Program-made: the position numbers and the translations under genes | Notes under the pieces: generated by a model | Told to the model about the DNA's origin: nothing | The model's input: only the letters and a program-made list of their open reading frames with translations | Databases searched by the model: none | From: Vicinamibacteria bacterium | Lineage (GTDB): Bacteria > Acidobacteriota > Vicinamibacteria > Fen-336 | Reading direction: 5' to 3' | DNA: 17,334 nucleotides | NCBI GenBank assembly: GCA_041481445.1 | Contig: JBGPBV010000141.1 | Coordinates: 1 to 17,334, forward strand | Part shown: piece by piece, positions 4,246 to 17,306 of the stretch | How positions within the stretch are numbered: position 1 is the first letter of the stretch | How the letters are laid out: every line of letters begins with the position of its first letter

Positions 4246-4369
4246 ATCGAGGAGAGGCGCGAAACACCGACAGTATCCCATCCAAGGTGGACGAAAGCAA
4301 GCGGGCCGCGGTCACGAAGGCATAGGTTTCCGTCCGCCGCTTGATCTAACCTATCGGCCGAAAGCGCCC

Positions 4370-5407
4370 ATGAGAACGACATCCCGGCTCGGCCTCTGCC
4401 TCCTCGCCGCGGTCACGGTCGCCGCCGAGACTCCGCCCGCCGCCTACCGGGCGGAGCAGGTCGGCCAGACCGTGCGGCTCACCGACACCGGCCGCGACGT
4501 CGTCGTGTCGATCGCGCCCTCTCGCGGAAACGTCACCTTCCAGATGCGGGTGAAGGGACACGACGTCCTGTACTTTCCGGTCGCGTCGATCGACGACCCG
4601 CGGGCCGGGCAGTTCGGCATCCCGTTCCTCGGCCCCTGGGCGAACCGGCTCGACGAGACCGCCTTCTACGCGGGCGGCCGGCGCTACGCGTTCGACATGG
4701 AGCTGGGCAACGTCAAGGGCGCCGTCCCGATCCACGGCTTCCTCGGGAGCGCCCAGTGGCAGGTGGTCGAGGCCCGCGCGGACGCCGACGCGGCCTGGGT
4801 GACGAGCCGTCTCGAGTTCTTCCGCGGTCCGCTCTGGATGAAGCAGTTCCCCTTCGCGCACACGATCGAGATCACGCACCGGCTGGCCGACGGCGTGCTC
4901 GAGGTACGCACGCGCATCCAGAACCTGAGCCTCGAGCCGATGCCGGTGAGCATCGGGTTCCACCCGTACTTCCAGCTGACGGACTCGCCCCGCAACGACT
5001 GGACGGTCTCGATCGGGGCGCGCCGCCAGTGGCTGCTGGCCGAGAACAAGATCCCCACCGGCGAGACGCAGCCGATCGAGCGCCTGTTCCCGAACCCGCA
5101 GGCGGTGGCGTTGAAGGACTACGACCTCGATCACGTCTTCGGCGACCTCGTCCGCGACGCGCAGGGCCGGGCCGTCATGAGCGTGAAGGGCCGCTCCCAG
5201 CGGCTCGACGTGACGATGGGCGGCAAGTACCGCGCCGCGGTCGTCTACGCGCCCGCCCCGGACCGCGGCTTCATCTGCTTCGAGCCGATGGTGGGCATCA
5301 CGAACGCGATGAACGCCGCCCACAAGGGCCTGTACACGGAGCTGCAGAGCATCCCCGTCGGGGGCACCTGGGAAGAGAGCTTCTGGGTGCGCCCGAGCGG
5401 GTTCTGA
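4370..5407 (+). CDS. Aldose 1-epimerase (galactose mutarotase-like) family protein, secreted
   Basis: GFHPYFQL is the family signature, CFEPMVG carries the catalytic-Glu motif, and [11 protein letters not shown] is also present. The N-terminal Sec signal is [19 protein letters not shown]. The track ORF 2924..5407 is the same frame with a spurious N-terminal extension antisense to the helicase gene. I take the ATG at 4370 as the start. Confidence 0.85.
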
Positions 5408-5433: not shown

Positions 5434-6212
<779 letters not shown>

Positions 6213-6213
<1 letters not shown>

Positions 6214-7781
6214 TGTCTCGAGTCACCGTGGGCGCGGCGGCGGCGCTCGGGTTCCTGGTCGGCTGCACACCCCGCCCGCAGGCGGTTGCGGGCTGGCGCA
6301 TGGCCGACCGGACGCTCGACGTCCTGACCGATCGGCCGCCCGGCGAGCCCGACGCGCCCGGGCCCGACGGCTTCGTGGACGACTACGACAACGCGCAGGG
6401 GCGGCTGATCCGCGGCGTCAACGGCAATATCTCGACGAAGTTCCCGGAGGACGGACGGTACGAGGTCGTCCTCGATGCCTGCGCCTCGAGCTGGGCCCAC
6501 GACTTCTCCTGGTCGGTGGACGGCGGGCCACCGCAACCGGCGACGTCGTGCCTGCACACGGTGCGCCTTGCCGAAGGCATGCATCAGGCCGAGCTGATCG
6601 CGCGGAACGCCTCCGGAGACGAGAGCCGGGCCACTCGGACGCTCAGCGTGAGGAACCTCGTGGTGGTCGGCCTGGGCGACTCCTACTCCGCGGGCTCCGG
6701 GAACTCACGCAACGGCCTGGTGTCCATCGACTACGACCAGATCCAGTGCACGCGCACCGGACGCTCGGGCCAGGCGGCGGCCGCCCTCGCGCTGGAGAAG
6801 GCCGACGAGGAGACCTCGGTGACCTTCATCCACCTGGCCTGCGGCGGCGCGCGCGCCACCACCGGCTTCTTGCGCGCCCACAACGGCCAGCCTCCCCAGA
6901 TCCTGGAGCTCGAGCAGATCCTGCCCCCGGGCAAGGCCGTCGACTTCGTCTCCTTCAGCATCGGCGGCAACGACGTGCGCTTCTCGGAGGTGATCGAGCA
7001 GTTGATCAAGGAGCCGGATGCTCCGCTCTCGCTGCTCGACGGCGAGCGCCTGCACGACCGGGTGCAGCGGCAGCTCGGAGAGCTGCGCGAGACCATGGCC
7101 AGCGTGGCCGCCTGTTTCGACTCCGGTTTCGAGGGCCGGCCCTGCGAGGTCACGGGCCCGTCCGGACGGGACGACGACGCCCAGGTGCTGATCATCCCGC
7201 GGATTCCCCTCGTGGCCCAGGATCGCGTGGTCCCGGTGACCTACCCGGATCTCAGCACGCGCTTCGTGAAGGACGGCCAGGGCCGGCCCGTCCTCGACGG
7301 GAGCGGCCAGCCGCGAGTCGAGACCTGCCCGAGCGGCGCCGTCGACGAGCCGGGCGATCTCCTCGACGGAGTGCCCGACGGCCTCATCGACGGGCGGCCG
7401 CTCGGGGATCCTCGTCCTCCGCGGCTCAGCGAATCGGAATGGGCCTGGGGCGGCACGGCCCTGCTCGGGCTCTCCGATCCGGCTCCCGACAACCGTGTCC
7501 CCGGCGTCTACGCCTACACGCCGGAGGCGGGCGGGGCGGCGGTGCCGCTGCCGTTCGTGGACACCTTGAACGCGCTGATCCTGGAATCCCGCGGACGCTT
7601 CGGCTGGAGCGCCTCCGACCGCTGGTTCAGGGACTCACGCGGCCACGGGTATTGCTCGACGCCGGACGACAACTGGTTCCTGCGCTCGATCTTCCACCCG
7701 AACGTCGCCGGCTACGACGGCGAGGCCCAGGGCCTCCTCGCGGAAGCACGGCGACTGGGACTGAAGGTGGACGGACTCTAG
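6213..7781 (+). CDS. SGNH/GDSL-hydrolase family lipoprotein with an N-terminal Ig/PKD-like domain and a large insertion
   Basis: The ATG overlaps the SDR stop (TGATG at 6211-6215). The lipoprotein signal is MSRVTVGAAAALGFLVGC, with lipobox LVGC. VVVGLGDSYSAGSG is SGNH block I, FSIGGNDV is block III, and a C-terminal FHPN is the His block. The SGNH blocks are separated by about 250 aa of extra sequence. Confidence 0.75.
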
Positions 7782-8992
7782 CCGGCGGGCTCCAGCGGCG
7801 TGTGGGAGTCGAGGAACAGCCAGCAGAGCGCGCCCGCCGCGTAGATGAGAGCCGAGATCAGGAACGTGAGCGTCCAGTCCTTCCCGGTCCAGGTCAGCAG
7901 GTATCCGACGACGATCACCGACGACGCTCCCGCCACGCTGCCCAGCGTGTTCATGGCGCCCGACACCGTGCCGGAGTAGCGGCCGCCCACGTCCATGGCG
8001 CCGGCCCAGGCCGCCGGCATCACGAAATCGTTGAAGAAGCCGGCCAGACCCAGGACGAGCATCGCGCGGACGGGATCGGCGACCTTCGTGAACGCGACGA
8101 TCGAGGCGGAGGCGCCGATGAACCCGGTGAGGGCGACCAGGCGGCGCGCGCGGGCCACGCCCGTCCGGCGGGCCAGGCGCGGGATCGCGGCCGCCGAGAC
8201 GAGGCAGCCGGCGCCTCCCATCAGGAGGGGCAGGCCGGCGAGCAGGGCGCCCATCTTCAGGCTCGTGCCGCGCGCCTCGCGCAGGTACGTGGGCAGCCAG
8301 TTGATGTAGAACCACCAGCCGTAGGCCAGGCACATGTACTGGAGCGACAAGAGCCAGACCGCGCGCGACGTGAAGATGCGCCGCCAGGGGACACGGGCGG
8401 CCACCGCCGACTCGCGTGCCGGCGGCAGCAACGCCCGCTCGGCGGCATTCATCCGCGGATGCCGGCTCGGGTCGTCCCGATACCAGCGATGGAAGAAGAG
8501 CGCCCACACCATCCCGATCGCCCCGAACACCTCGAAGGTGCGGCGCCAGGTCAGCCCTCCGATCATCAGGGCGACCAGGGTGGGTGTGAAGGCGCCGCTC
8601 ACGCGCGTGGCCAGCCACACCACGGCCTGCGCCCGCTCGCGCTCGCCCGCGGGCAGCCAGACGGTCAGGATCCGCGTCAGGTTGGGGAAGGCCCCCGCCT
8701 CGCCCGCGCCGAATAGCGCGCGCGTGACGATCAGCGAGCGCGGGCTCCAGGCCCAGCCCGTGAACGCGGTGAAGAACGACCACCAGAGGACGATGCGCAT
8801 CAGCACGCGGCGCGGTCCGATGCGGTCGCCCAGCCACCCGCCCGGGATCTCGAACAGCGCGTAGGCCCAGCCGAAGACGGACAGGGCCCAGCCCATCTGC
8901 ACGAGCGACAGGCCCAGGTCGCGGCGGATGTCGGCCGCGGCCACCGAGATCGCCACGCGGTCCATGTACGTGATCAGGGCCAGCAGCACCAC
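7778..8992 (-). CDS. MFS transporter, anion:cation symporter (ACS) family, DgoT/GudP-like sugar-acid transporter
   Basis: ALITYMDRVAISVAA...GWALSVFGWAYALFEIPGGWLGDRIGPRRVL is nearly collinear with E. coli DgoT TM1-TM2 and the loop motif. The product is hydrophobic throughout, with about 12 TM segments. The start is GTG at 8992, the first canonical start. The N-terminus would be more typical if it began a few codons upstream, where only a CTG is available. Confidence 0.85.
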   Translation of the reverse strand: MVLLALITYMDRVAISVAAADIRRDLGLSLVQMGWALSVFGWAYALFEIPGGWLGDRIGPRRVLMRIVLWWSFFTAFTGWAWSPRSLIVTRALFGAGEAGAFPNLTRILTVWLPAGERERAQAVVWLATRVSGAFTPTLVALMIGGLTWRRTFEVFGAIGMVWALFFHRWYRDDPSRHPRMNAAERALLPPARESAVAARVPWRRIFTSRAVWLLSLQYMCLAYGWWFYINWLPTYLREARGTSLKMGALLAGLPLLMGGAGCLVSAAAIPRLARRTGVARARRLVALTGFIGASASIVAFTKVADPVRAMLVLGLAGFFNDFVMPAAWAGAMDVGGRYSGTVSGAMNTLGSVAGASSVIVVGYLLTWTGKDWTLTFLISALIYAAGALCWLFLDSHTPLEPAG

Positions 8993-9153
8993 GAACGCGA
9001 GGGTGACGTAGCGGGCCCGCGTCGGGGCCGCGGTGTCGGCCGCTGGAATTGCCGCGTCGTCCAGGAGAGCCTCCGGTCAGTGGGCGCGTAACGCTAACAC
9101 GGCGCGGAGCCGCCAGACGCGAGGCTGGCCGTTCGTGGTAGGGTCCCGCGCCA

Positions 9154-9160
9154 AAGGAGA
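9154..9160 (+). promoter_or_regulatory. Shine-Dalgarno (AAGGAGA) for the Gfo/Idh/MocA gene
   Basis: The sequence is ccAAGGAGAagtctgATG, with the start at 9167. Confidence 0.55.
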
Positions 9161-9166
9161 AGTCTG

Positions 9167-10402
9167 ATGACCGACAGGCCCGATCCGTCCGGCCGGCGCC
9201 GGTTCCTCCGCACGTCCCTCGGCGCGACCACGGCCCTCCTGGCCGGCGCGCGCCTGGCCCCCGCCTCCGTTCTGGGCGCGAACGATCGCATTCGCATCGG
9301 CGTGATCGGCACCGGCGGGCGGGCCCGTGGCCTCATGCAGCAGCTCCAGGAGCTGCCCGGCCAGGAGATGGTGGCGGTGTCGGACGTCTACGAGCCGCGC
9401 TTGCTGGAGGCGGCGGACATCACCGCGGGCAAGGCGGCGAAGGTCCCCGACTACCGCCGCATCCTCGACGACAAGGCGGTCGATGCCGTCCTCATCGGCG
9501 CCCCCGACCACTGGCACAAGACGATGACGCTCGAGTCGCTCGCCGCCGGCAAGGACGTCTACGTGGAGAAGCCGGTCTCGCATTCGCTCGAAGAGGGCGA
9601 GGCGATGGTGAAGGCGGTCGAGGCCTCGAAGCAGGTCGTGCAGACGGGGACGCAGCAGCGGAGCTGGGACCACTGGATCCTGGGCAAGCAGATCGTGGAT
9701 TCGGGCAAGCTGGGCCGGGTGACCTTCGTCAACACCTACTGGTATCAACTGGCGAGGGGCGGGCCCCTGCCCGAGGTGGAGACGGCCAAGCTCGACTGGA
9801 AGGGCTGGCTCGGCCCCGCCGCCCTTCAGCCATTCGATGCCGAGCGCTTCCTGCGCTGGCGGCACTTCAAGCCGTTCGGTGGCGGCATGCTGACCGACCT
9901 GCTCACCCACTGGATCGACGTCGTGCACTGGTACATGGGCGTGGAGGCGCCGCTGTCCGCCGCCACCACCGCCCGCAAGTACCGCATGAAGAGCTGGGAC
10001 TGGCCGGACGCGGTGACGGCCACCCTCGAGTATCCCGGCGAGCTCATGGTGACCCACACCGGCAGCTACGGCAGCAGCATCGACGACGGGGGGCTCGAGT
10101 TCCGCGGCGATCTGGCCACGCTCAAGATCGACCGGGAGAGGCTCCTCGTCTTCAACGAGGGCTCCCCGCGGGTGGAAGGGCAGTACACCCCCGAGCCCGA
10201 GATCCAGGTGCGCTCGCAGGGCGACGGCACCACCAGCCACCTGCGCAACTGGCTCGACTGCATCCGCAGCCGGAAGACGCCGACCGCCCCGATGCGCGTG
10301 GGCCACCAGGCGGTGCGCGCCGCCCACATTGCCAACGCCTCCATGGGCCTCGGCGCGGCCGTGCGCTACGACGCCCGCACGGGAAGGATCGAGCGGTCCT
10401 GA
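9167..10402 (+). CDS. Gfo/Idh/MocA-family NAD(P)-dependent oxidoreductase with a twin-arginine (Tat) signal peptide, periplasmic
   Basis: The Tat motif is SGRRRFLRTSLGATTALLAGARLAPAS. IRIGVIGTGGRARG is the N-terminal Rossmann motif, and EKP and AVEASKQ are family motifs. Export and architecture are analogous to Zymomonas glucose-fructose oxidoreductase. Confidence 0.9.
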   Translation: MTDRPDPSGRRRFLRTSLGATTALLAGARLAPASVLGANDRIRIGVIGTGGRARGLMQQLQELPGQEMVAVSDVYEPRLLEAADITAGKAAKVPDYRRILDDKAVDAVLIGAPDHWHKTMTLESLAAGKDVYVEKPVSHSLEEGEAMVKAVEASKQVVQTGTQQRSWDHWILGKQIVDSGKLGRVTFVNTYWYQLARGGPLPEVETAKLDWKGWLGPAALQPFDAERFLRWRHFKPFGGGMLTDLLTHWIDVVHWYMGVEAPLSAATTARKYRMKSWDWPDAVTATLEYPGELMVTHTGSYGSSIDDGGLEFRGDLATLKIDRERLLVFNEGSPRVEGQYTPEPEIQVRSQGDGTTSHLRNWLDCIRSRKTPTAPMRVGHQAVRAAHIANASMGLGAAVRYDARTGRIERS

Positions 10403-10403
10403 C

Positions 10404-11204
10404 TCACTGGTCGCGCGGGGGCGGGGCCGGCACGGCCAGGAGCGCGTCCGCCGGCCGATGGCCGGCCCAGGCGATACCGCGCAGGACGATCTCCCGGGGG
10501 ACCTCCTTGAGGAAGTTCGCGGTGTGGTGTCCCTGCATCCAGACGAAGGACCGATAGGGCTGGCCGCCCGGCAGCGTCCTCTCGTACGACCAGGCCTGCG
10601 GGTTCACCTGGCCATCCTGCGGAAGCGGCGCCTCCACGAGCACGTGCATCCCGGGGGCCTTGCGCAGCAGGAAGAACGCCTCGTCGTCGATCTCGAAGTC
10701 GCCGAGGCCGCGCGTGACCGGATGCTCGCGGTCGACGAAATGCACCTTGACCTGTCCCTGCGACCAGTTCATCTCGCCGTGCTGCTTGGCGGCGCCGGCG
10801 ACCTGGGAGAACCAGCCCGGATCGTCCGAGCACATTCCGTCGTGGAGCACGACCAGCCCGCCGCCGCGCTTGAGGTACGGGTCCAGGGCCGCCCGCTCGG
10901 CCGGGCGGCAGCTGCCGCCGTCCCCCTTGTAGATGATGAGGACGTCCGTCCGGGCCAGCTCGTCCGCGGTGGGGAAGTGGAGCGCGCCGTCCACGGTGAC
11001 GCCGCGTTCGAGCAGGATCTTGCTCCAGTCGGCCAGGAACGCCGGATAGTCGTGCACCCCGTTGCCGACCGGGTTGTGCGTCTTCTCCCCGGCGCGGATG
11101 AACACGCGCAGCGGCCGCGCGGGCTCCTGCGCGCCGAGGCGGGCGGCCAGGGGGACCGCGACCGCGACCGCGGCCAGCAGCACGAGCGTCATCTTCGGTT
11201 CCAT
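10404..11204 (-). CDS. ThuA-like (trehalose-utilisation domain, class-I glutamine-amidotransferase-like fold) protein, secreted
   Basis: LKRGGGLVVLHDG and SYERTLPGGQPYRSFVWMQGHHTANF...IAWAG match ThuA-domain conserved blocks. I chose the ATG at 11204 (MEPKMTLVLLAAVAVAVPLAA, a Sec signal) because GGGAGGA lies 3-4 nt upstream. The longer track ORF starting at 11294 adds a non-signal Arg/Cys-rich extension and overlaps the upstream gene. Confidence 0.75.
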   Translation of the reverse strand: MEPKMTLVLLAAVAVAVPLAARLGAQEPARPLRVFIRAGEKTHNPVGNGVHDYPAFLADWSKILLERGVTVDGALHFPTADELARTDVLIIYKGDGGSCRPAERAALDPYLKRGGGLVVLHDGMCSDDPGWFSQVAGAAKQHGEMNWSQGQVKVHFVDREHPVTRGLGDFEIDDEAFFLLRKAPGMHVLVEAPLPQDGQVNPQAWSYERTLPGGQPYRSFVWMQGHHTANFLKEVPREIVLRGIAWAGHRPADALLAVPAPPPRDQ

Positions 11205-11207
11205 GGA

Positions 11208-11214
11208 TCCTCCC
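11208..11214 (-). promoter_or_regulatory. Shine-Dalgarno (GGGAGGA) for the ThuA-like gene
   Basis: The reverse complement reads GGGAGGAtccATG. Confidence 0.5.
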
Positions 11215-11247
11215 GCGACCTCGTCGCATCCGGCGTTGATGGGAGCC

Positions 11248-13809
11248 TCACCTCGGCAGCGCGCGCAGCTCCTCCGCGCTCCAGGGGCGCGCACGCCGCC
11301 TGGTCAGACCGCGGATCTCCTTGACCGCCTCCGGCTCGACCGCGGAGCCGGTGTTGCCCCACGCCCGGCGCACGTAGGTCAGGACCGATGCGATCTCGTC
11401 GTCGCCGAGCGCGGCCAGGGGCGGCATCAGGCCGATGTCGCCCTCCTTGCCGGCCAGGACGATGCGGACGGGAACGCCCGCCTCGCCGACGAGCAGGGAC
11501 GACCCCACGAGGCTGGGGCCCTGGTGCTCTCGCCCGCGGCCGTCTTCTCCGTGGCAGGAGAGGCAGAGGTTGCCGAAGAGCTTGTGGCCGGCCTCGAACC
11601 GGGCGTTCTCGCTGGCGGTCAGCGGCGGTGCCTCGACGCGCGCCACGGGCTTGCCCGGCCAGTCGAGCCGGGCCGCGACCGCCTTGGCCAGTGCGCCGAT
11701 CTCGCCCGTCTCCGCCGTCATGCTCCGCAGCGACCGGGGTGGGGCGGACAGCCTCACGGCGCGGGGGGGCCCCGTGCGCGCGGCGGGGCCACCGGGCTCG
11801 CCGCGCTCGCCGCCGCCGAGGCCGGCCTCCAGGCCGCGCAACAGCGCCGCGCGCTGCCAGGGCGGCCGATCGGTGGTCCCGGCCTGCTCGAGCAGGCGCG
11901 TCACGGCCGCGGGCGCGCGCGACCGCGCCAGGGCTCCGGCCAGCATGGCGACCCCTTCCGCGGTCTCCGCGTTCCCCTCGCCCTCCAGCAGCCGCCCGAG
12001 AACGTCGGCCTCCATCCCCGCGAGCCCGCTCACGACGGCGTCGACGGTGATCGGATCGCCGCCGTAGCGCCGGAGCATGCCCAGGGCCGGCTCGAGGCGC
12101 ACGGTGCGGGGCAGCTCGCCGATCGAGGCGGCGAGCTGGCGGCGGACGGTCCAATGCGGATCGTCCATCAGGCGGAGCACGGTGGCGGCGAGCGGATGGC
12201 CGGGCTCGGCCAGCCACGTCTCGGACCATCGAATCGCCCATGCGCGCACGTCGGGTGAGGGATCGGAATAGAGCTGCTGGAGGGTCGGCGCGTCGAGCGC
12301 ACCCAGCCCGCCGAGCGTGCCCAGCGCGTGCAGCTTCGTCCGCCACTCCGTCGCCGAGCGCAGGAGGTCCCGCAGCGCCGGCACCACGGCGCGGTCGCCG
12401 CGCTGGACGAGGAGCTGCTGCGCGGTATCCCGCCACCACCCGTTCGGATGGGCCAGGTACGGGACGAGGGAGGCCGAGGTCTCCTTCGACAGCGCCGGCC
12501 GGTGGTCGCGCTGGGTCGTGTCGTGCCGGAGGCGCCAGATGCGTCCACGGTTCGTGGGCTGGACGAGCTTGTTCCGCTTGATGTAGTCCTGCAGGTATTC
12601 GGTCTGGTAGGCGGCGTCCTGCACCACGCCGCGGTACATGTCGACCACGTAGAGGGTGCCGTCGGGGGCGGAGGCCGCGCTCACCGGCCGCACGCGCTCG
12701 TCGCGGGAGGCGAAGATCTCGCCCTTCTTGAAGCCGTTGCGCGCGGTCAGGCGGCCCTGGCCGTCGTCCTCGATCACGAACCAGTGCAACATGTTCGTCG
12801 TGCAGTCGGTGATGAACACGCCGCCCCGCAGCTCGTAGGGCAGGCGATCGCCGCGGTAGACGACGGGGGTGGCCGCGCTCTGCAGGATCCGCGAGGAGCC
12901 GTCCGGCCGGAAGAACTGGTCGCGGTAGCCGCGATTGACGCCGCGCGTGGGCCGCACCGGCCAGACCTCGGCTTCGGAAAGGGAGATGAGCGAGGCGTAG
13001 AGGCCGCGCGTCTGCACGACGCCCGGGTTCCTCATGAAGTAGCGGGCGGGCGTGTAGTCCACGAACAAGGGCGAGCTGTTGACGTTGCGAAAGACGCGCC
13101 CGGCGTCGTCGATGGAGCCGCCCCACTGCCCGCGGTTGAGGGTCGGCATGACCTCGAAGCCGCCGCCGCGCCGGTACCGCAGGTGCCAGTCGTGCTCGGA
13201 GGTGTAGAGCCAGTTGTCGAGTCCCCAGATGAGGCTGTTCGCGTTGTGCTCCGGGTTCCCCTCCCGGCGGCCGAAGGTGTCGCTCACCAGCGTCTTCTCG
13301 TCCATCTTCAGGTCGCCGTTCGTGTCGCGCATCCACCACAGGTACGGCGGCTCGCCCACGAGCACGCCGCCGGCCAGGGTCTTGATCGCGCGCGGCAGGA
13401 CGAGCTTGTCGGCGAAGACGGTCCGGCGGTCCATCGTCCCGTCGTCGTCGAGGTCTTCCAGGACCACCACCCGGCAGATCCCCTCGCGTGAGTCCTTCAT
13501 CCCCTCGCCCGCGGCGAAGGCCGGCATCTCGACCACCCACAGGCGGCCGTCGGCGTCGAAGTCGATCAGGATGGGGTCCTCGACCAGGGGCTCCTTCGCC
13601 ACCAGCTCGACCCGATAGCCGGGGGGGACGACGATCGTCTTCCGGGACTCCTCCGCCGAGAGCTCCGGCGCGCCCTTGTCCTCCGGCACCACGGGGGGCG
13701 GCCAGGGCTGGCGCTCGACCTGGCCGCGACAGCCGAGGGCGGCACCCGTCGCGAGGAGCACCGCCGCCAGGGTGAAGACGGTCGCGAGACGTCCGCTCCT
13801 GGCCTGCAT
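11248..13809 (-). CDS. PVC-type heme-binding CxxCH lipoprotein: N-terminal membrane-bound-dehydrogenase domain, central HEAT repeats, C-terminal cytochrome c domain
   Basis: The lipoprotein signal is MQARSGRLATVFTLAAVLLATGAALGC. The N-terminal block IVVPPGYRVELVAKEPLVEDPILIDFDADGRLWVVEM is typical of the TIGR02604-type dehydrogenase domain of Planctomycetes/Verrucomicrobia/Acidobacteria. HEAT-like repeats span residues ~480-600 (ALRDLLRS..., LYSDPSPDVRAWAIRW..., LRLMDDPHWTVRRQLA...). The C-terminus carries GNLCLSCHGEDG, a CxxCH heme c site. Confidence 0.85.
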   Translation of the reverse strand: MQARSGRLATVFTLAAVLLATGAALGCRGQVERQPWPPPVVPEDKGAPELSAEESRKTIVVPPGYRVELVAKEPLVEDPILIDFDADGRLWVVEMPAFAAGEGMKDSREGICRVVVLEDLDDDGTMDRRTVFADKLVLPRAIKTLAGGVLVGEPPYLWWMRDTNGDLKMDEKTLVSDTFGRREGNPEHNANSLIWGLDNWLYTSEHDWHLRYRRGGGFEVMPTLNRGQWGGSIDDAGRVFRNVNSSPLFVDYTPARYFMRNPGVVQTRGLYASLISLSEAEVWPVRPTRGVNRGYRDQFFRPDGSSRILQSAATPVVYRGDRLPYELRGGVFITDCTTNMLHWFVIEDDGQGRLTARNGFKKGEIFASRDERVRPVSAASAPDGTLYVVDMYRGVVQDAAYQTEYLQDYIKRNKLVQPTNRGRIWRLRHDTTQRDHRPALSKETSASLVPYLAHPNGWWRDTAQQLLVQRGDRAVVPALRDLLRSATEWRTKLHALGTLGGLGALDAPTLQQLYSDPSPDVRAWAIRWSETWLAEPGHPLAATVLRLMDDPHWTVRRQLAASIGELPRTVRLEPALGMLRRYGGDPITVDAVVSGLAGMEADVLGRLLEGEGNAETAEGVAMLAGALARSRAPAAVTRLLEQAGTTDRPPWQRAALLRGLEAGLGGGERGEPGGPAARTGPPRAVRLSAPPRSLRSMTAETGEIGALAKAVAARLDWPGKPVARVEAPPLTASENARFEAGHKLFGNLCLSCHGEDGRGREHQGPSLVGSSLLVGEAGVPVRIVLAGKEGDIGLMPPLAALGDDEIASVLTYVRRAWGNTGSAVEPEAVKEIRGLTRRRARPWSAEELRALPR

Positions 13810-13824
13810 CCCTGGATCTCGAGG

Positions 13825-15309
13825 CTATTCGATCGGATCGAGGCGCACCACGACGCCGGGCGTGGACGACGACAGCTTGACCCCTGGCAGCTGCAGGGCC
13901 ACGTAGAGCAGCCCGTCGGGGCCGGTCACGACGTCACGCACACGGCCGTAGCGGTTGAAGAGCACCTCCTCGTGCGTGGCCTGGCGGCCTTTCACCTCCA
14001 GGCGCCGCAGGGCGGTGCCGCCGAGGCCGGTCACGAACAGGTCGTTGCGCCAGCCCGGATAGCGATTCCCCGAGTAGAAGTGGATCCCGCTGGGCGCGAT
14101 GGTCGGGTTCCAGTACACGATCGGCGGCTCCATGCCCTCGTGCGCCGTCTGCGTGATGCCGGGCTCGAGGCCGTGCGAGATCACGGGCCAGCCGTAGTTG
14201 TGGCCGGGCTCGAGGATGTTGAGCTCGTCGCCGCCCATCGGCCCGTGCTCGGACTCCCACAGGAGGCCGGTCACCGGATCGATCGAGAAGCCCTGGGGAT
14301 TGCGATGGCCGTAGGTCCAGATGGTCGGCACCGCACCGGCGCGGCCCGCGAACGGGTTGTCGGAGGGGACGGTCCCGTCGTCGTTGATGCGGTGCACCTT
14401 TCCCAGCGGGCTTCCGAGGTCCTGGGCGGCCGTTGGCTGCCCCCGGTCTCCGATCGAGTACAGGAGCTTGCCCTGTCGATCGAAGACGAAGCGCGAGCCG
14501 TAGTGGTAGTTGAGGGGACCGAAGAGCGCCGGCGGCGGCCGGTAGAGGGCCTGCTCGTCGACCCACCGGTTGTCCTTGACCCGCCCGCGGACGATCGCGG
14601 TCATCGACGTGTCATCGGGCCCGGCGGCCGCGTACGAGAGATAGATCCAGCCGTTCTCGGCGTAGTTCGGATGCACCTCGACGTCCAGGAGTCCCCCGTC
14701 CTGGACGGTCCAGGGCCTGGGCGTGCCCGCGACCGCCTCCGGCAACAGGCGGCCCTTCTCCACGATCCTCAGCCGGCCCGGCCGCTCGGTGACGAGCATC
14801 CGCCCGTCCGGCAGGAACGCGATCCCCCAGGGCGTCTCCAGGTCGCGCGCCACCACCTCGAGCTTGAAGGCCTGCTTCTCCGACCGGATCACCTGGCCTT
14901 CGGGGTCGACGATCGTCGGCGGATGTTCCCGGGCTTCGGCCGCCTCCTGGCGGATCAACACCACGAGCTGCCAGATCTGCTCCTCCGTGAGCACGTCCTT
15001 GAAGGCGACCATCGCGGTGCCTTTGCGGCCGTCGCGGATGGTCTCGACCACGTGCGCGTCGTCGCCGCCGAACTTCCACTCGTCGTCGACCAGGCTGCTC
15101 GCCGCGCCACCCTCGAGGGACCGGCCGTGGCAGGCCACGCAACGCTGGTCGTACACGGCCCAGGTCTTCACCATCGGATCGCCCGGCCCGCGTCCGGCCC
15201 GCGGGTCGCGGGGTGGGCTCGGCGCGGACGGCGGACCCTGCGCGGGGGGGACGGTGAAGGCGAGCGTGGCCGCGGCGGCCAGGGGCCAGACGGCGGCGGC
15301 GCGAGTCAT
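13825..15309 (-). CDS. Cytochrome c-fused PQQ-dependent soluble sugar (glucose/sorbosone) dehydrogenase, secreted
   Basis: The signal peptide is MTRAAAVWPLAAAATLAFTVPPAQG. The N-terminal domain has CVACHG (CxxCH). The beta-propeller body has sGDH/YliI-family blocks: WGIAFLPDGRMLVTER, GGLLDVEVHPNY, GHRNPQG, LWESEHGPMGGDELN and GHNYGWP. It lies 15 nt upstream of the PVC gene, so they are probably co-transcribed. Confidence 0.9.
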   Translation of the reverse strand: MTRAAAVWPLAAAATLAFTVPPAQGPPSAPSPPRDPRAGRGPGDPMVKTWAVYDQRCVACHGRSLEGGAASSLVDDEWKFGGDDAHVVETIRDGRKGTAMVAFKDVLTEEQIWQLVVLIRQEAAEAREHPPTIVDPEGQVIRSEKQAFKLEVVARDLETPWGIAFLPDGRMLVTERPGRLRIVEKGRLLPEAVAGTPRPWTVQDGGLLDVEVHPNYAENGWIYLSYAAAGPDDTSMTAIVRGRVKDNRWVDEQALYRPPPALFGPLNYHYGSRFVFDRQGKLLYSIGDRGQPTAAQDLGSPLGKVHRINDDGTVPSDNPFAGRAGAVPTIWTYGHRNPQGFSIDPVTGLLWESEHGPMGGDELNILEPGHNYGWPVISHGLEPGITQTAHEGMEPPIVYWNPTIAPSGIHFYSGNRYPGWRNDLFVTGLGGTALRRLEVKGRQATHEEVLFNRYGRVRDVVTGPDGLLYVALQLPGVKLSSSTPGVVVRLDPIE

Positions 15310-15451
15310 GGAGCCGGATTATGGCCCACTCGCGATCCCGCCCAGGGGAACACCTCCGCCCGGTGAGATGGGTGCGGTCCACGAACGCTTCCGGGCGGCG
15401 GTCGAACCCACACATTGCGGTCCGGCGGCATTCGGCCGTACCTTTAGGCGC

Positions 15452-15458
15452 AAGGAGG
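15452..15458 (+). promoter_or_regulatory. Shine-Dalgarno (AAGGAGG) for the PAS-domain gene
   Basis: The sequence is gcAAGGAGGctgcccGTG, with a GTG start at 15465. Confidence 0.5.
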
Positions 15459-15464
15459 CTGCCC

Positions 15465-16046
15465 GTGTTCTCGAAGACATCCGCCGAGGACCTTCGGGCG
15501 GTGCTGGCCGCCTATCGGACGGTCAAGAACGGGTCCTGGCCCCAGCTCCACGCGGCCATGGATCGTCGCGCCTCGCACTGGGCGATGGCGGCGGAGACGG
15601 AGCTGGCCGCCGAGCTCGCGGGCTATCTGAAGGAGGCGGACGTGCCCGACGGCGTCGTGCGCGTGTTCTGGAAGCTCGGACCCAGGTTCATCTTCGCCGG
15701 TTGCAACGAGCGCTTCGCCCACGACGCGGGTGTGCCCGCGGCCGAGCTCATGGGCATGGACGACTTCGACTCGCGGCTGCCCTGGGGCGCGCAGGCCTCC
15801 AAGTACCGCGCGGACGACGCGGAGGTCTTCAAGGCCGCCGCCCCCAAGCTCGACATCGTGGAGCGTCAGAAGTCGGCCTCCGGTGACATCGTCTGGGTCC
15901 GCGTCGGCAAGGCGCCGATCCTGGCCGCCGGCGGCAGCGCTCGGGGCGTCCTGGGCATGTACGACCTCCTCGCCGACAAGGAGGCGAAGAAGATCGTGTT
16001 CACGCGCACGACACAGACGTTCAAGATCCCACCGTCCGGGCGGTAG
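15465..16046 (+). CDS. Small stand-alone PAS-domain protein (~193 aa), no recognisable output domain
   Basis: FAGCNERFAHDAGVPAAELMGMDDFDSRLPWGAQASKYRADDAEVFKAAAPKLDIVERQKSASGDIVWVRVGKAPILAAGGSARGVLGMYDL follows the PAS consensus (N-x-F...G-x-x-x-x-EL-G...D...Y...D...V...G...E...G...W...K-P...G-x-x-GV-G...D). I chose the GTG at 15465 because of the strong SD. The ATG at 15321 in the track would add a non-coding-looking leader overlapping the divergent promoter region. Confidence 0.6.
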   Translation: MFSKTSAEDLRAVLAAYRTVKNGSWPQLHAAMDRRASHWAMAAETELAAELAGYLKEADVPDGVVRVFWKLGPRFIFAGCNERFAHDAGVPAAELMGMDDFDSRLPWGAQASKYRADDAEVFKAAAPKLDIVERQKSASGDIVWVRVGKAPILAAGGSARGVLGMYDLLADKEAKKIVFTRTTQTFKIPPSGR

Positions 16047-16199: not shown

Positions 16200-17306
16200 C
16201 TACAGCAGCTTCACGACACGGTCGGCGAGGCCCTTCTCGCCGAGCACGACCGTCAGGTTGGCCTTCTCCGACACCTTCTCCAGGACCTCGAGCTCACGCA
16301 GGCGCATCAGGGTGGGGCTCGACTCCAGGATCTTGGCCGTGTTGGCCTGCGAGCGCATGGCCGCCGTCTCCTCCCGGCGCGTGATGAGGGCGGCCTCGGC
16401 CGCCTTCTTGGCCTCGGTCACCTTGTTCATGAGGTCCTTCATCTCGCCGGGCAGGATCACGTCACGGATGCCGAGGGCGACGACGTCCACGCCGAAACCG
16501 GCGACGCGCTCCCGCACGATGCCGTCCAGCTCCCGCGCGACCGCGTCCTTGTCGCTCAGCAGCACGTCCAGCTCACGCGTGCCGACCACGCCCCGCAGCG
16601 CGAGCTGCGCCTCGCGGTAGAGGGCCTGACGGTAGTCCTCCACCGTGGTCACGGCCACGAGGGGATCCGCCACCTTGTAGGTCACGACGGCGTTCAGGCG
16701 CAGCGTGACCTTGTCCGCGGTCATGATCTCCTGGCCGGCCACGTCCACGACCTGCTCGCGCAGGTCGACGTCCAGGACGCGGGCCTTGGCCACGCCCTTC
16801 CAGAAGGCGTGCGGTCCGGGAGCGAGCGTGGCCTCGTGACGGCCGTCCTTGAAGAAGAGGCCGGCGTGGCCGGCCTCGACCGTCGTGGCCTCGATCAGCG
16901 GCGCGGCGCCGCGGGCCTGGACGATCGCGGCCAGGTCGGTGTGATCGAAGCGCAGCGTGCGCGCATCGAAGGTCTCCACGCGCACGTCGTGGAAGACGGT
17001 CCAGAGCGCGTACAGGCCGGGCTTGAGCACCGCCTCGACACGGCCGTCGACCCACACCACGGCCCGCTCGTGGTCCTTCAGGTCGACCACGCGCGCCTCG
17101 TCGCCGAGGGCGCCCGACTTCGCGATCACGTCCAGGTCCTTGTGGTCGAGCCAGACGTTGCGGACGGAGACGACGTCGATGCGGGCCTTGAGGAGAGGGT
17201 CCCGAATCCAGTGGCGGCCGGGACCCAGCACGCGCTCGAACTCACGATCGCGGAAGAGCAGCCCGCGCTCGTGCTCACGAACCTTGAGACGACGCAGCAC
17301 CATCAA
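16200..17306 (-). CDS. SPFH/Band-7 domain protein, slipin-like, with an N-terminal beta-rich extension of about 150 aa
   Basis: The start MMVLRRLKVREHERGLLFRDREF is a slipin-type N-terminus. The SPFH core is VVDVAGQEIMTADKVTLRLNAVVTYKVADPLVAVTTVEDYRQALYREAQLALRGVVGTRELDVLLSDKD...EMKDLM. The C-terminal coiled-coil is AKKAAEAALITRREETAAMRSQ. The start is ambiguous: the first TTG is at about 17306 with an ATG immediately after it, and an AGGTGG lies 6-9 nt upstream. Confidence 0.85.
   Translation of the reverse strand: MMVLRRLKVREHERGLLFRDREFERVLGPGRHWIRDPLLKARIDVVSVRNVWLDHKDLDVIAKSGALGDEARVVDLKDHERAVVWVDGRVEAVLKPGLYALWTVFHDVRVETFDARTLRFDHTDLAAIVQARGAAPLIEATTVEAGHAGLFFKDGRHEATLAPGPHAFWKGVAKARVLDVDLREQVVDVAGQEIMTADKVTLRLNAVVTYKVADPLVAVTTVEDYRQALYREAQLALRGVVGTRELDVLLSDKDAVARELDGIVRERVAGFGVDVVALGIRDVILPGEMKDLMNKVTEAKKAAEAALITRREETAAMRSQANTAKILESSPTLMRLRELEVLEKVSEKANLTVVLGEKGLADRVVKLL

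What the first reader, a model, noticed from the sequence alone, without database searches (positions are those of the whole stretch)
9167..11204. Tat-exported Gfo/Idh/MocA oxidoreductase and ThuA-like gene are tail-to-tail with stop codons 1 nt apart
**Seen in sequence.**
- The plus-strand TGA ends at 10402.
- The minus-strand stop TGA (reverse complement of TCA at 10404-10406) starts 1 nt later.
- There is no room for any terminator, so the two transcripts must overlap or terminate inside each other.

**Established knowledge.** In the characterised thuAB system, the ThuA partner ThuB is a Gfo/Idh/MocA oxidoreductase, and the two genes are co-directional and cytoplasmic.

**Inference.** Here the same two families are both exported and convergently arranged. 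This is a variant of the ThuA/ThuB pairing that may act on a periplasmic glycoside through a 3-keto-sugar type of oxidation.
Basis: partly seen in the sequence, partly recalled or inferred. Interest (0 to 1): 0.55.

Follow-up and report, generated by a model that had tools for sequence, protein, structure and literature searches.

The report
Convergent periplasmic sugar-oxidation gene pair
Two genes for exported sugar-oxidation proteins (a Tat-signal Gfo/Idh/MocA dehydrogenase and a ThuA-like protein) end 1 nt apart on opposite strands of a soil acidobacterial contig; this spacing is normal for the lineage, and the ThuA-like gene belongs mainly with an upstream cytochrome c-linked dehydrogenase operon, not with the Gfo gene.

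Summary
The plus-strand TGA is at 10400-10402, C at 10403, and the minus-strand stop (TCA) at 10404-10406. Both ORFs have coding-type GC3, Shine-Dalgarno motifs and the claimed Pfam families.

The 1-nt spacing is not special. Seven of 17 convergent gene pairs in this window and related contigs have a gap of at most 1 nt or a 4-nt overlap.

The ThuA-like gene is the last gene of a minus-strand operon: cyt c-GSDH, then DUF7133-HEAT-cyt c, then ThuA. DUF7133-cyt c is next to this ThuA subfamily in 13 of 23 lineages. The Gfo orthologue is next to it in only 3. A relative with 83% identical ThuA has no Gfo gene at all; there ThuA runs directly into the MFS gene.

The Gfo enzyme is a distant relative of BT2158-type periplasmic glycoside 3-dehydrogenases with a conserved twin-arginine motif. 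Among Tat-Gfo relatives, ThuA is the second commonest neighbour family (4 of 83 loci). True co-directional Tat-Gfo + exported ThuA + 3-keto-disaccharide hydrolase operons exist (L007, L099), but they use another ThuA subfamily.

So 3-keto-type periplasmic sugar oxidation is plausible, and a "ThuAB variant" is only partly supported. This is a new member of known kinds, of modest interest.

The parts
9154..9160 (+). Shine-Dalgarno-like AAGGAGA, 6 nt upstream of the Gfo start codon
   Evidence: Sequence read (reverse complement shown there).
9167..10402 (+). Gfo/Idh/MocA-family oxidoreductase, 411 aa. It is a distant relative of BT2158-type glycoside 3-dehydrogenases.
   Evidence: GC3 is 0.95. 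Pfam PF01408, PF02894, PF22725 and PF19051 all match. The best NCBIfam match is BT_2158_fam at 113 bits, far below its 750-bit cut-off. The best PDB matches are 8tdf/8tdh, with the EKP and D-x-x-x-H motifs aligned.
9167..9280 (+). Predicted twin-arginine signal peptide, residues 1-38 (SGRRRFLRT, hydrophobic core, VLGA|ND)
   Evidence: R10, R11 and F13 are invariant in 15 orthologues. The BT_2158_fam alignment starts at residue 10. Pfam TAT_signal gives only 11.3 bits. The cleavage site is inferred.
10400..10406 (.). Tail-to-tail junction TGA-C-TCA: the two stop codons are separated by 1 nt
   Evidence: Sequence. No terminator-like site is found, and folding is no better than shuffles.
10404..11204 (-). 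ThuA-domain protein, 266 aa, called 'subfamily A' here. It is the last gene of the minus-strand operon.
   Evidence: Pfam ThuA scores 97.4 bits. The AlphaFold model has pLDDT 92.5. The closest solved folds are the ThuA-like proteins 4e5v and 4jqs. GGGAGGA precedes the ATG at 11204.
11130..11204 (-). Predicted Sec-type signal peptide of the ThuA-like protein, residues 1-25 (MEPKMTLVLLAAVAVAVPLAARLGA|QE)
   Evidence: A hydrophobic N-terminus is present in all 15 homologues of A1. The model shows a helix at residues 5-24 ahead of the first strand of the domain. The cleavage site is inferred.
11248..13809 (-). DUF7133 (beta-propeller dehydrogenase-like) + HEAT repeats + C-terminal cytochrome c, 853 aa, with a signal or lipoprotein-like N-terminus. 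It lies 43 nt upstream of the ThuA gene.
   Evidence: Pfam PF23500 scores 309 bits, with HEAT_2 and Cytochrome_CBB3 also matching. TIGR02604 scores 201.9 against a 122.2 cut-off. The N-terminus was read. This protein is next to the ThuA subfamily in 13 of 23 lineages.
13825..15309 (-). Cytochrome c + GSDH (PQQ-type glucose/sorbosone dehydrogenase), 494 aa. It is the first gene of the operon, 15 nt upstream of the DUF7133 gene.
   Evidence: Pfam GSDH scores 396.7 bits, and Cytochrome_CBB3 also matches. The signal-like N-terminus was read.
8993..9166 (.). 174-nt divergent intergenic region between the Gfo gene and the MFS gene. It presumably holds both promoters.
   Evidence: The region is largely conserved with L001/L002, including the block GTGTTAGCGTTACGC. 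No sigma-70 consensus is found.
7778..8992 (-). MFS transporter similar to D-galactonate and sugar-acid transporters, transcribed divergently from the Gfo gene
   Evidence: Pfam MFS_1 scores 185.8 bits. TIGR00893 scores 242 bits. In L003 and L113 the homologue follows ThuA co-directionally.
4367..5407 (+). Aldose 1-epimerase with a signal peptide; part of the same sugar-oxidation island
   Evidence: Pfam PF01263. The N-terminus [20 protein letters not shown] was read. In L036 the homologue lies between DUF7133-cyt c and ThuA.
5434..6213 (+). SDR resembling KduD or gluconate 5-dehydrogenase; part of the island
   Evidence: Pfam and NCBIfam matches. SDR genes recur beside ThuA-A loci.

Best explanation
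The two genes are separate transcription units that happen to abut inside a periplasmic sugar-oxidation island of a Vicinamibacteria (Acidobacteriota) genome.

**The ThuA-like gene.** It is the terminal gene of a minus-strand operon: cyt c-GSDH, a 15-nt gap, DUF7133-HEAT-cyt c, a 43-nt gap, then ThuA. Its products are exported. I infer that it works with c-type-cytochrome-linked sugar dehydrogenases. Its own chemistry is unknown.

**The Gfo gene.** It is monocistronic and transcribed divergently from a sugar-acid-type MFS transporter gene. It encodes a Tat-exported Gfo/Idh/MocA dehydrogenase. I infer that this enzyme folds around a tightly bound NAD(P) before export and oxidises a sugar or glycoside hydroxyl in the periplasm, most likely at C3, as BT2158/AL3-type enzymes do.

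**The spacing.** The 1-nt stop-to-stop distance reflects the general compaction of convergent genes in this high-GC lineage. Stop codons are rare there, and the poorly conserved C-terminal tails run on until the first stop. Transcripts must end by read-through into the opposite gene or by factor-dependent termination.

**The link between the two.** Any functional tie is loose (same island, possibly the same pathway). It is not an obligate ThuAB-like pair.
For: **Gene map.** GC3 analysis and Pfam give the map. The gaps of 15 and 43 nt and the Shine-Dalgarno motifs are read from the sequence.

**ThuA-A neighbourhood.**
- DUF7133-cyt c is adjacent in the window, L001, L003, L006-L009, L011, L013, L021, L023, L036 and L112, which is 13 of 23 lineages.
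- GSDH-cyt c or PQQ-ADH-cyt c lies beside it in L005-L008, L011 and L012.
- In L112, ThuA-A is fused to a cytochrome P460 domain.
- The gene downstream of ThuA-A varies: Gfo, MFS, SDR, a GltD-like gene, glyoxalase, AP_endonuc_2, a second ThuA, and others.
- L003 (83% ThuA) has DUF7133-cyt c, then ThuA, then MFS, with TAG followed directly by ATG and no Gfo gene.

**Gfo orthologues.** Orthologues at 63-77% identity sit in unrelated contexts in L024, L025 and L028-L035.

**Spacing.** Tight convergent pairs make up 7 of 17. No terminator or unusual structure is detected.

**Gfo enzyme.** The RR-F motif is invariant. The best matches are BT_2158_fam, 8tdf/8tdh and DgpA. The literature describes Tat-signal Gfo enzymes with tightly bound NAD acting as periplasmic glycoside 3-dehydrogenases (PMC8121099; bioRxiv 10.1101/2024.03.25.586180).
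Against: **Signs of a closer link between the pair.**
- The convergent ThuA-A/Gfo adjacency reappears in L036, a much more distant relative (ThuA 55%, Gfo 63%) with otherwise rearranged flanks. That hints at selection for proximity.
- ThuA is the second commonest neighbour family of Tat-Gfo relatives (4 of 83 loci).
- One orthologue of this Gfo (L027, 66%) has a co-directional ThuA gene 19 nt upstream.

**Limits of the evidence.**
- Export is inferred from motifs only; Pfam TAT_signal is below its threshold.
- The Gfo enzyme is far below the BT_2158_fam cut-off (113 against 750 bits), so its substrate and regiochemistry are unproven.
- There are no expression data.
Confidence: 0.6

Rival explanations
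1. This is a genuine periplasmic ThuA/ThuB analogue. The exported ThuA-like protein is a working partner of the Tat-exported Gfo dehydrogenase, for example by helping to form or process 3-keto-glycosides or by re-oxidising the enzyme's bound NAD(P)H. The convergent layout keeps the two genes together.
For: - The adjacency is kept in L001/L002 and in the distant L036 despite rearranged flanks.
- ThuA is the second most frequent neighbour of Tat-Gfo relatives.
- Co-directional operons of Tat-Gfo, exported ThuA and 3keto-disac_hyd exist in L099 and L007. Tat-Gfo + ThuA pairs exist in L072 and L027.
- A rhizobial plasmid carries a co-directional Gfo-ThuA pair 17 nt apart.
- ThuAB is reported to form 3-keto-disaccharides (cited in PMC8121099).
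Against: - The ThuA proteins in those co-directional operons belong to other subfamilies, at most 30% identical to the window protein.
- ThuA-A lacks any adjacent Gfo orthologue in 20 of 23 lineages, including the 83% relative L003.
- The Gfo orthologues at 76-77% identity (L024, L028, L029) have no ThuA nearby.
- Convergent genes cannot be co-transcribed.
Confidence: 0.2
2. The juxtaposition is pure coincidence. The two genes serve unrelated substrates and pathways, and they sit together only because both families are abundant in Acidobacteriota and sugar genes cluster.
For: - Downstream neighbours of ThuA-A are highly variable and include clearly unrelated genes, such as the GltD-like gene at a 1-nt gap in L021 and glyoxalase.
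- Contexts of Gfo orthologues are equally variable.
- The Gfo gene is present or absent between ThuA and MFS in close relatives (window against L003).
Against: - The same convergent pair recurs in L036.
- There is a family-level excess of ThuA next to Tat-Gfo genes: 4 of 83 loci, against roughly 1% expected if ThuA genes are at most 0.5% of genes. That frequency is my own rough assumption, not a measured value.
- The whole locus is thematically coherent: exported aldose epimerase, SDR, sugar-acid MFS, GSDH. In L001/L002 it also holds GMC, Gluconate_2-dh3 and AP_endonuc_2.
Confidence: 0.15
3. The 1-nt tail-to-tail layout is itself regulatory. Read-through from each gene makes antisense RNA to the other, so transcriptional interference makes expression of the Gfo gene and the ThuA operon mutually exclusive.
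For: - There is no terminator-like element and no space for one.
- L001/L002 even overlap by 4 nt.
Against: - The same tight spacing is seen for 7 of 17 convergent pairs of unrelated genes in these genomes, so it is a genome-wide habit and not a feature of this locus.
- L036 keeps the pair with a spacer of about 170 nt.
Confidence: 0.05

Closest known systems
BT2158 / AL3-type periplasmic glycoside 3-dehydrogenases (Gfo/Idh/MocA with a Tat signal and tightly bound NAD; Bacteroides thetaiotaomicron BT2156-BT2160 pathway)
   Same: - It has the same Pfam architecture and an N-terminal twin-arginine motif.
- This family is its best NCBIfam and PDB-sequence match.
- The EKP and D-x-x-x-H motifs align.
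- Relatives of the window Gfo often sit beside AP_endonuc_2 and 3keto-disac_hyd genes, as in the BT and AL clusters.
   Different: - It scores only 113 bits against the 750-bit family cut-off, and the PDB alignment covers only residues 39-262.
- The window has no DUF1080 hydrolase, no xylose-isomerase-like lyase and no second Gfo gene.
- The host is an aerobic soil acidobacterium with cytochrome c-linked partners nearby, not a gut anaerobe.
ThuA/ThuB of the rhizobial and Agrobacterium thuEFGKAB trehalose-utilisation operon
   Same: The same two Pfam families lie next to each other. ThuAB is reported to make 3-keto-disaccharides (cited in PMC8121099). A rhizobial plasmid example shows Gfo followed by ThuA 17 nt apart beside a sugar ABC transporter.
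   Different: - The window genes are convergent, not co-directional.
- Both window proteins carry N-terminal export signals that the rhizobial pair lacks.
- Identity is about 30% over 92 residues (ThuA) and 23% over 206 residues (Gfo).
- The window ThuA does not detect rhizobial ThuA by tblastn at 1e-3.
- The window has no ABC transporter.
PVC-type heme-binding CxxCH / DUF7133 'membrane-bound dehydrogenase' proteins with adjacent ThuA-domain genes (Planctomycetota, Verrucomicrobiota, Acidobacteriota; function uncharacterised)
   Same: The window ThuA directly follows a protein that matches TIGR02604 and PF23500 and carries HEAT repeats and a C-terminal cytochrome c. This pairing recurs in 13 of 23 lineages, including a Verrucomicrobia MAG (L013).
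   Different: No member of this set has a tested function, so this is a resemblance of context only. Some relatives lack the DUF7133 partner altogether (L004, L010, L019/L020, L113).
Zymomonas mobilis glucose-fructose oxidoreductase (Gfo), the founding Tat-exported NADP-containing periplasmic enzyme of the family
   Same: It is a Gfo/Idh/MocA fold exported by Tat with a pre-bound cofactor (as described in PMC8121099). The window protein has the same domain set and a twin-arginine motif.
   Different: Gfo oxidises C1 of glucose and reduces fructose in a ping-pong cycle. The window enzyme's closest matches are 3-dehydrogenases and inositol dehydrogenases. No direct comparison with the Zymomonas sequence was run.

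Membership tests
Gfo/Idh/MocA oxidoreductase family (Pfam PF01408 + C-terminal domains) | N-terminal NAD(P)-binding Rossmann domain above the Pfam gathering score | tested here: met
   PF01408 scores 73.6 bits against a 24 cut-off over residues 42-161. The GxGxxG-like motif is GVIGTGGRA.
Gfo/Idh/MocA oxidoreductase family (Pfam PF01408 + C-terminal domains) | C-terminal alpha/beta domain with the EKP motif and a catalytic Asp/His | tested here: met
   PF02894 scores 55.1 bits and PF22725 scores 50.8 bits. E134-K135-P136 and D244...H248 are invariant in 15 orthologues and align to the same residues of 8tdf/8tdh.
BT_2158_fam glycoside 3-dehydrogenase (NCBIfam NF058561, equivalog) | Whole-protein score at or above the curated cut-off (750 bits) | tested here: not met
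   The score is 113 bits and covers only model positions 2-286 of 487. It is the best-scoring family but not a membership.
BT_2158_fam glycoside 3-dehydrogenase (NCBIfam NF058561, equivalog) | Oxidation of glycosides at C3 with a tightly bound NAD | not testable with these tools
   This needs an enzyme assay. There is only context support: AP_endonuc_2 and 3keto-disac_hyd are enriched beside relatives.
Tat (twin-arginine) exported proteins | S/T-R-R-x-F-L-K motif, followed by a hydrophobic core and an A-x-A-type cleavage site | tested here: inconclusive
   SGRRRFLRT, a hydrophobic stretch and VLGA|ND are present. R10, R11 and F13 are invariant in orthologues. However, Pfam TAT_signal gives 11.3 bits against a 22.7 cut-off. 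No dedicated signal-peptide predictor was available.
ThuA domain family (Pfam PF06283) | Pfam gathering score met over most of the domain | tested here: met
   The score is 97.4 bits against 33.4, with residues 61-247 matching model positions 24-209 of 209.
ThuA domain family (Pfam PF06283) | Class-I glutamine-amidotransferase-like fold as in the solved ThuA-like proteins | tested here: met
   The model has pLDDT 92.5. The top Foldseek PDB hits are the ThuA-like proteins 4e5v and 4jqs/4pxy (E 1e-9, TM about 0.6), followed by GATase domains.
ThuAB system (thuEFGKAB-type) | thuA and thuB co-directional and adjacent in one operon with a sugar ABC transporter | tested here: not met
   The window genes are convergent. 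The window has no ABC sugar transporter. The rhizobial comparison locus L111 does show the co-directional layout.
ThuAB system (thuEFGKAB-type) | Orthology to rhizobial ThuA and ThuB | tested here: not met
   Against the L111 pair, identity is 30% over 92 residues (ThuA) and 23% over 206 residues (Gfo). There is no rhizobial hit by tblastn at 1e-3. The reference was a Rhizobium sp. SL42 Gfo-ThuA pair, not the S. meliloti proteins themselves.
ThuAB system (thuEFGKAB-type) | Conserved pairing of the two genes across relatives | tested here: not met
   Only 3 of 23 ThuA-A lineages have the Gfo orthologue adjacent. Contigs with Gfo orthologues at 63-77% identity mostly lack ThuA.
PVC-type heme-binding CxxCH / DUF7133 dehydrogenase operon | TIGR02604 / PF23500 domain plus a cytochrome c domain in the neighbouring protein, co-directional with ThuA | tested here: met
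   TIGR02604 scores 201.9 against 122.2. PF23500 scores 309 bits. Cytochrome_CBB3 matches residues 737-813. The gap to ThuA is 43 nt. The pairing recurs in 13 of 23 lineages.

The most novel reading that the evidence does not exclude
Exported ThuA-domain proteins may be the missing redox partners of periplasmic Tat-exported Gfo/Idh/MocA glycoside dehydrogenases. These enzymes carry a non-exchangeable NAD(P). ThuA would take reducing equivalents from the enzyme-bound NAD(P)H, or from the 3-keto/enediol intermediate, and pass them to c-type cytochromes. In this window those would be the DUF7133-HEAT-cyt c and cyt c-GSDH proteins. Glycoside 3-oxidation would then feed the respiratory chain.

The window would be one such node, with ThuA placed between a cytochrome c fusion protein and the Tat-Gfo gene.

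The evidence does not exclude this reading:
- ThuA is linked to haem proteins by operon position and by a cytochrome P460 fusion.
- ThuA is linked to Tat-Gfo + 3-keto-disaccharide hydrolase operons in L007 and L099.
- The cofactor-recycling problem, and cytochromes as one possible answer, are raised in 10.1101/2024.03.25.586180.
Probability: 0.12. Interest if true: 0.7.

Novelty: new member of a known kind. Interest (0 to 1): 0.3.

Why it matters
The finding as stated, a 1-nt tail-to-tail junction, does not matter much. It is normal packing in this lineage.

The context is more useful. The survey shows that exported ThuA-domain proteins, a large family with no established biochemical role, fall into subfamilies with two distinct habitual partners:
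- cytochrome c-fused beta-propeller dehydrogenases (DUF7133, GSDH);
- Tat-exported Gfo enzymes together with 3-keto-disaccharide hydrolases.

This gives a concrete hypothesis for the role of ThuA in periplasmic 3-keto-sugar metabolism. It also bears on how periplasmic Gfo enzymes with a locked-in NAD are re-oxidised in respiring soil bacteria, which is an open point in the recent literature on glycoside 3-dehydrogenases. For that question, loci such as L007 and L099 are better test cases than this window.

Tried and rejected
- **Hidden bidirectional terminator or conserved structure at the junction.** Rejected. No terminator-like site is found and folding energy equals that of shuffles.
- **The 1-nt spacing is unusual.** Rejected by the census of convergent pairs, 7 of 17 tight.
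- **Strict conservation of the pair.** Rejected by the ThuA-seeded scan of genomes, the contig look-ups and the Gfo-seeded scan of metagenomes.
- **My own iterated ThuA HMM might miss divergent ThuA neighbours.** Checked with a Pfam census of 142 neighbour ORFs, which found the same four loci.
- **Orthology to classical ThuAB.** The window ThuA finds no rhizobial ThuA in PLSDB by tblastn. The comparison with a rhizobial Gfo-ThuA pair is weak. I could not retrieve the S. meliloti ThuA and ThuB sequences themselves.
- **Literature searches for ThuA with cytochrome c or DUF7133.** These returned only noise. The one functional mention of a ThuA-domain protein (deoxynojirimycin degradation, PMC11494336) gives no mechanism.
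- **Pfam TAT_signal on the isolated N-terminus.** Below threshold, so Tat export rests on the motif and its conservation.
- **Inverted repeats in the Gfo-MFS intergenic region.** Only one weak 18-nt pair, 72% complementary. Not pursued.


Full report
**Observation**

The window is a 17,334-bp, roughly 71% GC contig. It is identical to an NCBI metagenome-assembled contig, and its closest named protein homologues come from Vicinamibacteria, Acidobacteriota.

The junction reads ...cggtcc TGA c TCA ctggtc.... The plus-strand stop is at 10400-10402, C is at 10403, and the minus-strand stop (as TCA) is at 10404-10406.

Both ORFs show the coding signature of high-GC DNA, with GC3 of 0.95 and 0.92 and GC2 of 0.49. 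The overlapping alternative ORFs do not. The ATG at 9167 follows AAGGAGA, and the ATG at 11204 follows GGGAGGA.

**Gene map**

| Coordinates | Strand | Gene |
|---|---|---|
| 273-2771 | - | FtsX/MacB permease |
| 2849-4138 | - | DEAD-box helicase |
| 4367-5407 | + | aldose 1-epimerase with a signal peptide |
| 5434-6213 | + | KduD-like SDR |
| 6213-7781 | + | GDSL-like protein |
| 7778-8992 | - | sugar-acid-type MFS transporter |
| 9167-10402 | + | Gfo/Idh/MocA oxidoreductase |
| 10404-11204 | - | ThuA-domain protein |
| 11248-13809 | - | DUF7133 + HEAT + cytochrome c |
| 13825-15309 | - | cytochrome c + GSDH |
| 15321-16046 | + | weak PAS match |
| 16200-17306 | - | SPFH protein |

On the minus strand the gaps are 15 nt (GSDH to DUF7133) and 43 nt (DUF7133 to ThuA). 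ThuA is therefore the last gene of a three-gene operon. All three products have signal-like N-termini.

**Is the 1-nt spacing special?**

No.
- No terminator-like or promoter-like site is found in 8800-11500.
- The junction folds no better than shuffled sequence on either strand (z -0.42 and -0.32).
- In the same window the GDSL and MFS genes overlap tail-to-tail by 4 nt.
- In gene calls on related contigs plus the window, 7 of 17 convergent pairs have a gap of at most 1 nt or a 4-nt overlap.
- Two of those pairs involve the same families with unrelated partners. The ThuA of L021 abuts a GltD-like gene with a 1-nt gap. The Gfo orthologue of L025 overlaps a zinc-ADH gene by 4 nt.
- The C-terminal tails of both families are poorly conserved. 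This fits ORFs running on until the first stop in stop-poor DNA. That last point is an inference.

**Is the ThuA/Gfo juxtaposition conserved? The ThuA side**

A genome scan and contig look-ups give 23 lineages of the window's ThuA subfamily, which I call ThuA-A (47-86% identity).
- DUF7133-cyt c is adjacent in 13 of them.
- GSDH-cyt c or PQQ-ADH-cyt c lies beside it in several others.
- In L112 the ThuA-A protein is itself fused to a cytochrome P460 domain and overlaps the upstream DUF7133-cyt c gene by 4 nt.
- The downstream neighbour varies: Gfo (window, L001/L002, L036), MFS (L003, L113), SDR, a GltD-like gene, glyoxalase, AP_endonuc_2, a second ThuA, DUF6807, and others.
- L003, with 83% identical ThuA, has the ThuA TAG followed directly by the ATG of the MFS gene. 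Relative to L003, the Gfo gene of the window sits as a single antisense gene between ThuA and MFS.

**The Gfo side**

A metagenome scan returned 80 Tat-Gfo relatives at 30-76% identity.
- Orthologues at 63-77% identity in L024, L025 and L028-L035 have no ThuA neighbour.
- L036 is the exception. Its Gfo is 63% and its ThuA 55% identical to the window proteins. It keeps the convergent pair with a spacer of about 170 nt, although the flanks are rearranged: ILVD_EDD then Gfo on one strand, facing ThuA, AldEpi and DUF7133-cyt c on the other.
- L027 (Gfo 66%) has a frameshifted ThuA of another subfamily, co-directional and 19 nt upstream.

**Family-level association**

I ran a Pfam census of 142 immediate-neighbour ORFs from 83 Tat-Gfo loci.

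| Neighbour family | Count |
|---|---|
| AP_endonuc_2 | 10 |
| ThuA | 4 |
| aldo-keto reductase | 3 |
| Gfo/Idh/MocA | 3 |
| 3keto-disac_hyd | 2 |

Several glycoside hydrolases also appear. The four ThuA cases are the same loci that my own iterated HMM had found.

Two loci are striking:
- L099 encodes Tat-Gfo, then an exported ThuA, then 3-keto-disaccharide hydrolase, then an MFS and an SSS transporter, all co-directional.
- L007, a Luteitalea MAG, encodes SDR, GSDH-cyt c, an MBL-fold protein, ThuA-A, DUF7133-cyt c, 3keto-disac_hyd, a second ThuA, Tat-Gfo and ILVD_EDD, all on one strand.

The ThuA proteins that pair with Tat-Gfo in L007 and L099 are 38% identical to each other. They show little or no similarity to ThuA-A: L007_2 gives 23% identity to the L036 protein and no reportable hit to the window protein. 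An exported ThuA + Tat-Gfo module is therefore real in environmental bacteria, but it uses a different ThuA clade from the one in the window.

**What the proteins are: Gfo**
- Full Gfo/Idh/MocA domain set.
- Best NCBIfam match is BT_2158_fam glycoside 3-dehydrogenase, at 113 bits against a 750-bit cut-off. It is not a member.
- Best PDB-sequence matches are 8tdf/8tdh, then DgpA and the inositol dehydrogenases. The EKP and D-x-x-x-H motifs align.
- The twin-arginine motif SGRRRFLRT has R10, R11 and F13 invariant in 15 orthologues. Pfam TAT_signal is sub-threshold.
- Published work describes Tat-signal Gfo enzymes (BT2158, AL3) as periplasmic glycoside 3-dehydrogenases with tightly bound NAD. 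It notes that how the cofactor is re-oxidised in vivo is unsettled, and suggests cytochromes as one possibility (PMC8121099; 10.1101/2024.03.25.586180).

**What the proteins are: ThuA-A**
- Pfam ThuA at 97 bits.
- Confident model, pLDDT 92.5.
- Closest solved folds are the uncharacterised ThuA-like proteins 4e5v and 4jqs, followed by class-I amidotransferases.
- Across exported and cytoplasmic ThuA subfamilies only a handful of residues are universal: window H121, G137, P162, E175, W205, R218 and G225-H226. The chemistry they perform is unknown.

**Comparison with classical ThuAB**

A Rhizobium plasmid shows the co-directional cytoplasmic layout, with Gfo followed by ThuA after a 17-nt gap, beside a sugar ABC transporter.
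- Both of those proteins begin where the mature parts of the window proteins begin. They lack the signals.
- Identity to the window proteins is low, 23-30% over partial lengths.
- The window ThuA finds no rhizobial ThuA by tblastn.
That fits this layout and my own knowledge of the ABC-importer operon. PMC8121099, however, refers to ThuAB as periplasmic and cytochrome c-dependent. I could not resolve this discrepancy.

**Conclusion**

The best explanation (confidence about 0.6) is that two separate transcription units sit in a periplasmic sugar-oxidation island. ThuA-A belongs to the cytochrome c-linked dehydrogenase operon. The Gfo gene is a monocistronic Tat-exported dehydrogenase, probably a glycoside or sugar 3-dehydrogenase, transcribed divergently from the MFS gene.

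A real working partnership between the two (about 0.2) is not excluded, because of L036 and the family-level association. Pure coincidence (about 0.15) and antisense regulation (about 0.05) are the other rivals.

On novelty, these are new members of known kinds. The most interesting reading still open is that exported ThuA proteins couple periplasmic Gfo dehydrogenases to c-type cytochromes (probability about 0.12).

Noticed in passing
window 7778-7781: The GDSL-like gene (+, 6213-7781) and the MFS gene (-, 7778-8992) are also convergent, and their stop codons overlap by 4 nt. This is a second tight tail-to-tail pair in the same window.
   Followed up: yes
window 6213-7781, compared with L001 13441-16727 and L002 4305-7591: The window has a 522-aa GDSL-like protein between the SDR and MFS genes. 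The 86%-identical relatives carry GMC oxidoreductase + Gluconate_2-dh3 + AP_endonuc_2 there instead, a set that looks like a flavin glycoside 3-oxidase/lyase module. The island has swapped a cassette.
   Followed up: partly
window 8993-9076 (minus strand, upstream of the MFS ORF start at 8992): The conserved N-terminal coding sequence of the MFS protein (..AAPTRARYVTLAF..) extends upstream of the first canonical start codon. Between the in-frame TGA and 8992 there is no ATG, GTG or TTG. The relatives L001 and L003 start earlier, so the window gene may use a non-canonical start or be N-terminally shortened.
   Followed up: partly
window 9090-9104 (block GTGTTAGCGTTACGC, minus-strand reading) in the Gfo-MFS intergenic region: This 15-nt block is perfectly conserved with L001/L002 inside an otherwise variable stretch of the divergent promoter region. 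It could be an operator or promoter element.
   Followed up: no
L007 401-12733 (Luteitalea sp. MAG WHTZ01000014.1): One-strand cluster: SDR, GSDH-cyt c, MBL-fold protein, ThuA-A, DUF7133-cyt c, 3-keto-disaccharide hydrolase, a second ThuA, Tat-Gfo, ILVD/EDD dehydratase. It joins the cytochrome-linked module and the 3-keto-glycoside module in one putative operon.
   Followed up: partly
L099 4322-10030: Co-directional operon: Tat-Gfo (SRRDFLKL motif), then an exported ThuA, then DUF1080 3-keto-disaccharide hydrolase, then an MFS and an SSS transporter. This is the clearest example found of a periplasmic ThuA + Gfo + 3-keto-hydrolase module.
   Followed up: partly
L112 3497-8203: A ThuA-A homologue (67% identity) is fused to a cytochrome P460 domain. 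Its gene overlaps the upstream DUF7133-cyt c gene by 4 nt and is convergent with an AP_endonuc_2 gene 10 nt away.
   Followed up: partly
L027 5805-6981: The ThuA gene upstream of a 66%-identical Gfo orthologue is split over two reading frames. This is either a sequencing frameshift or a pseudogene.
   Followed up: no
L005 8732-10372 and L006 6222-7301: A second, divergent ThuA paralogue lies directly downstream of ThuA-A. The two paralogues are 78% identical to each other, and the one in L005 also has an EF-hand match.
   Followed up: no
window 6211-6215: The SDR stop codon and the GDSL-like start codon overlap (TGATG), which suggests translational coupling of these two genes.
   Followed up: no
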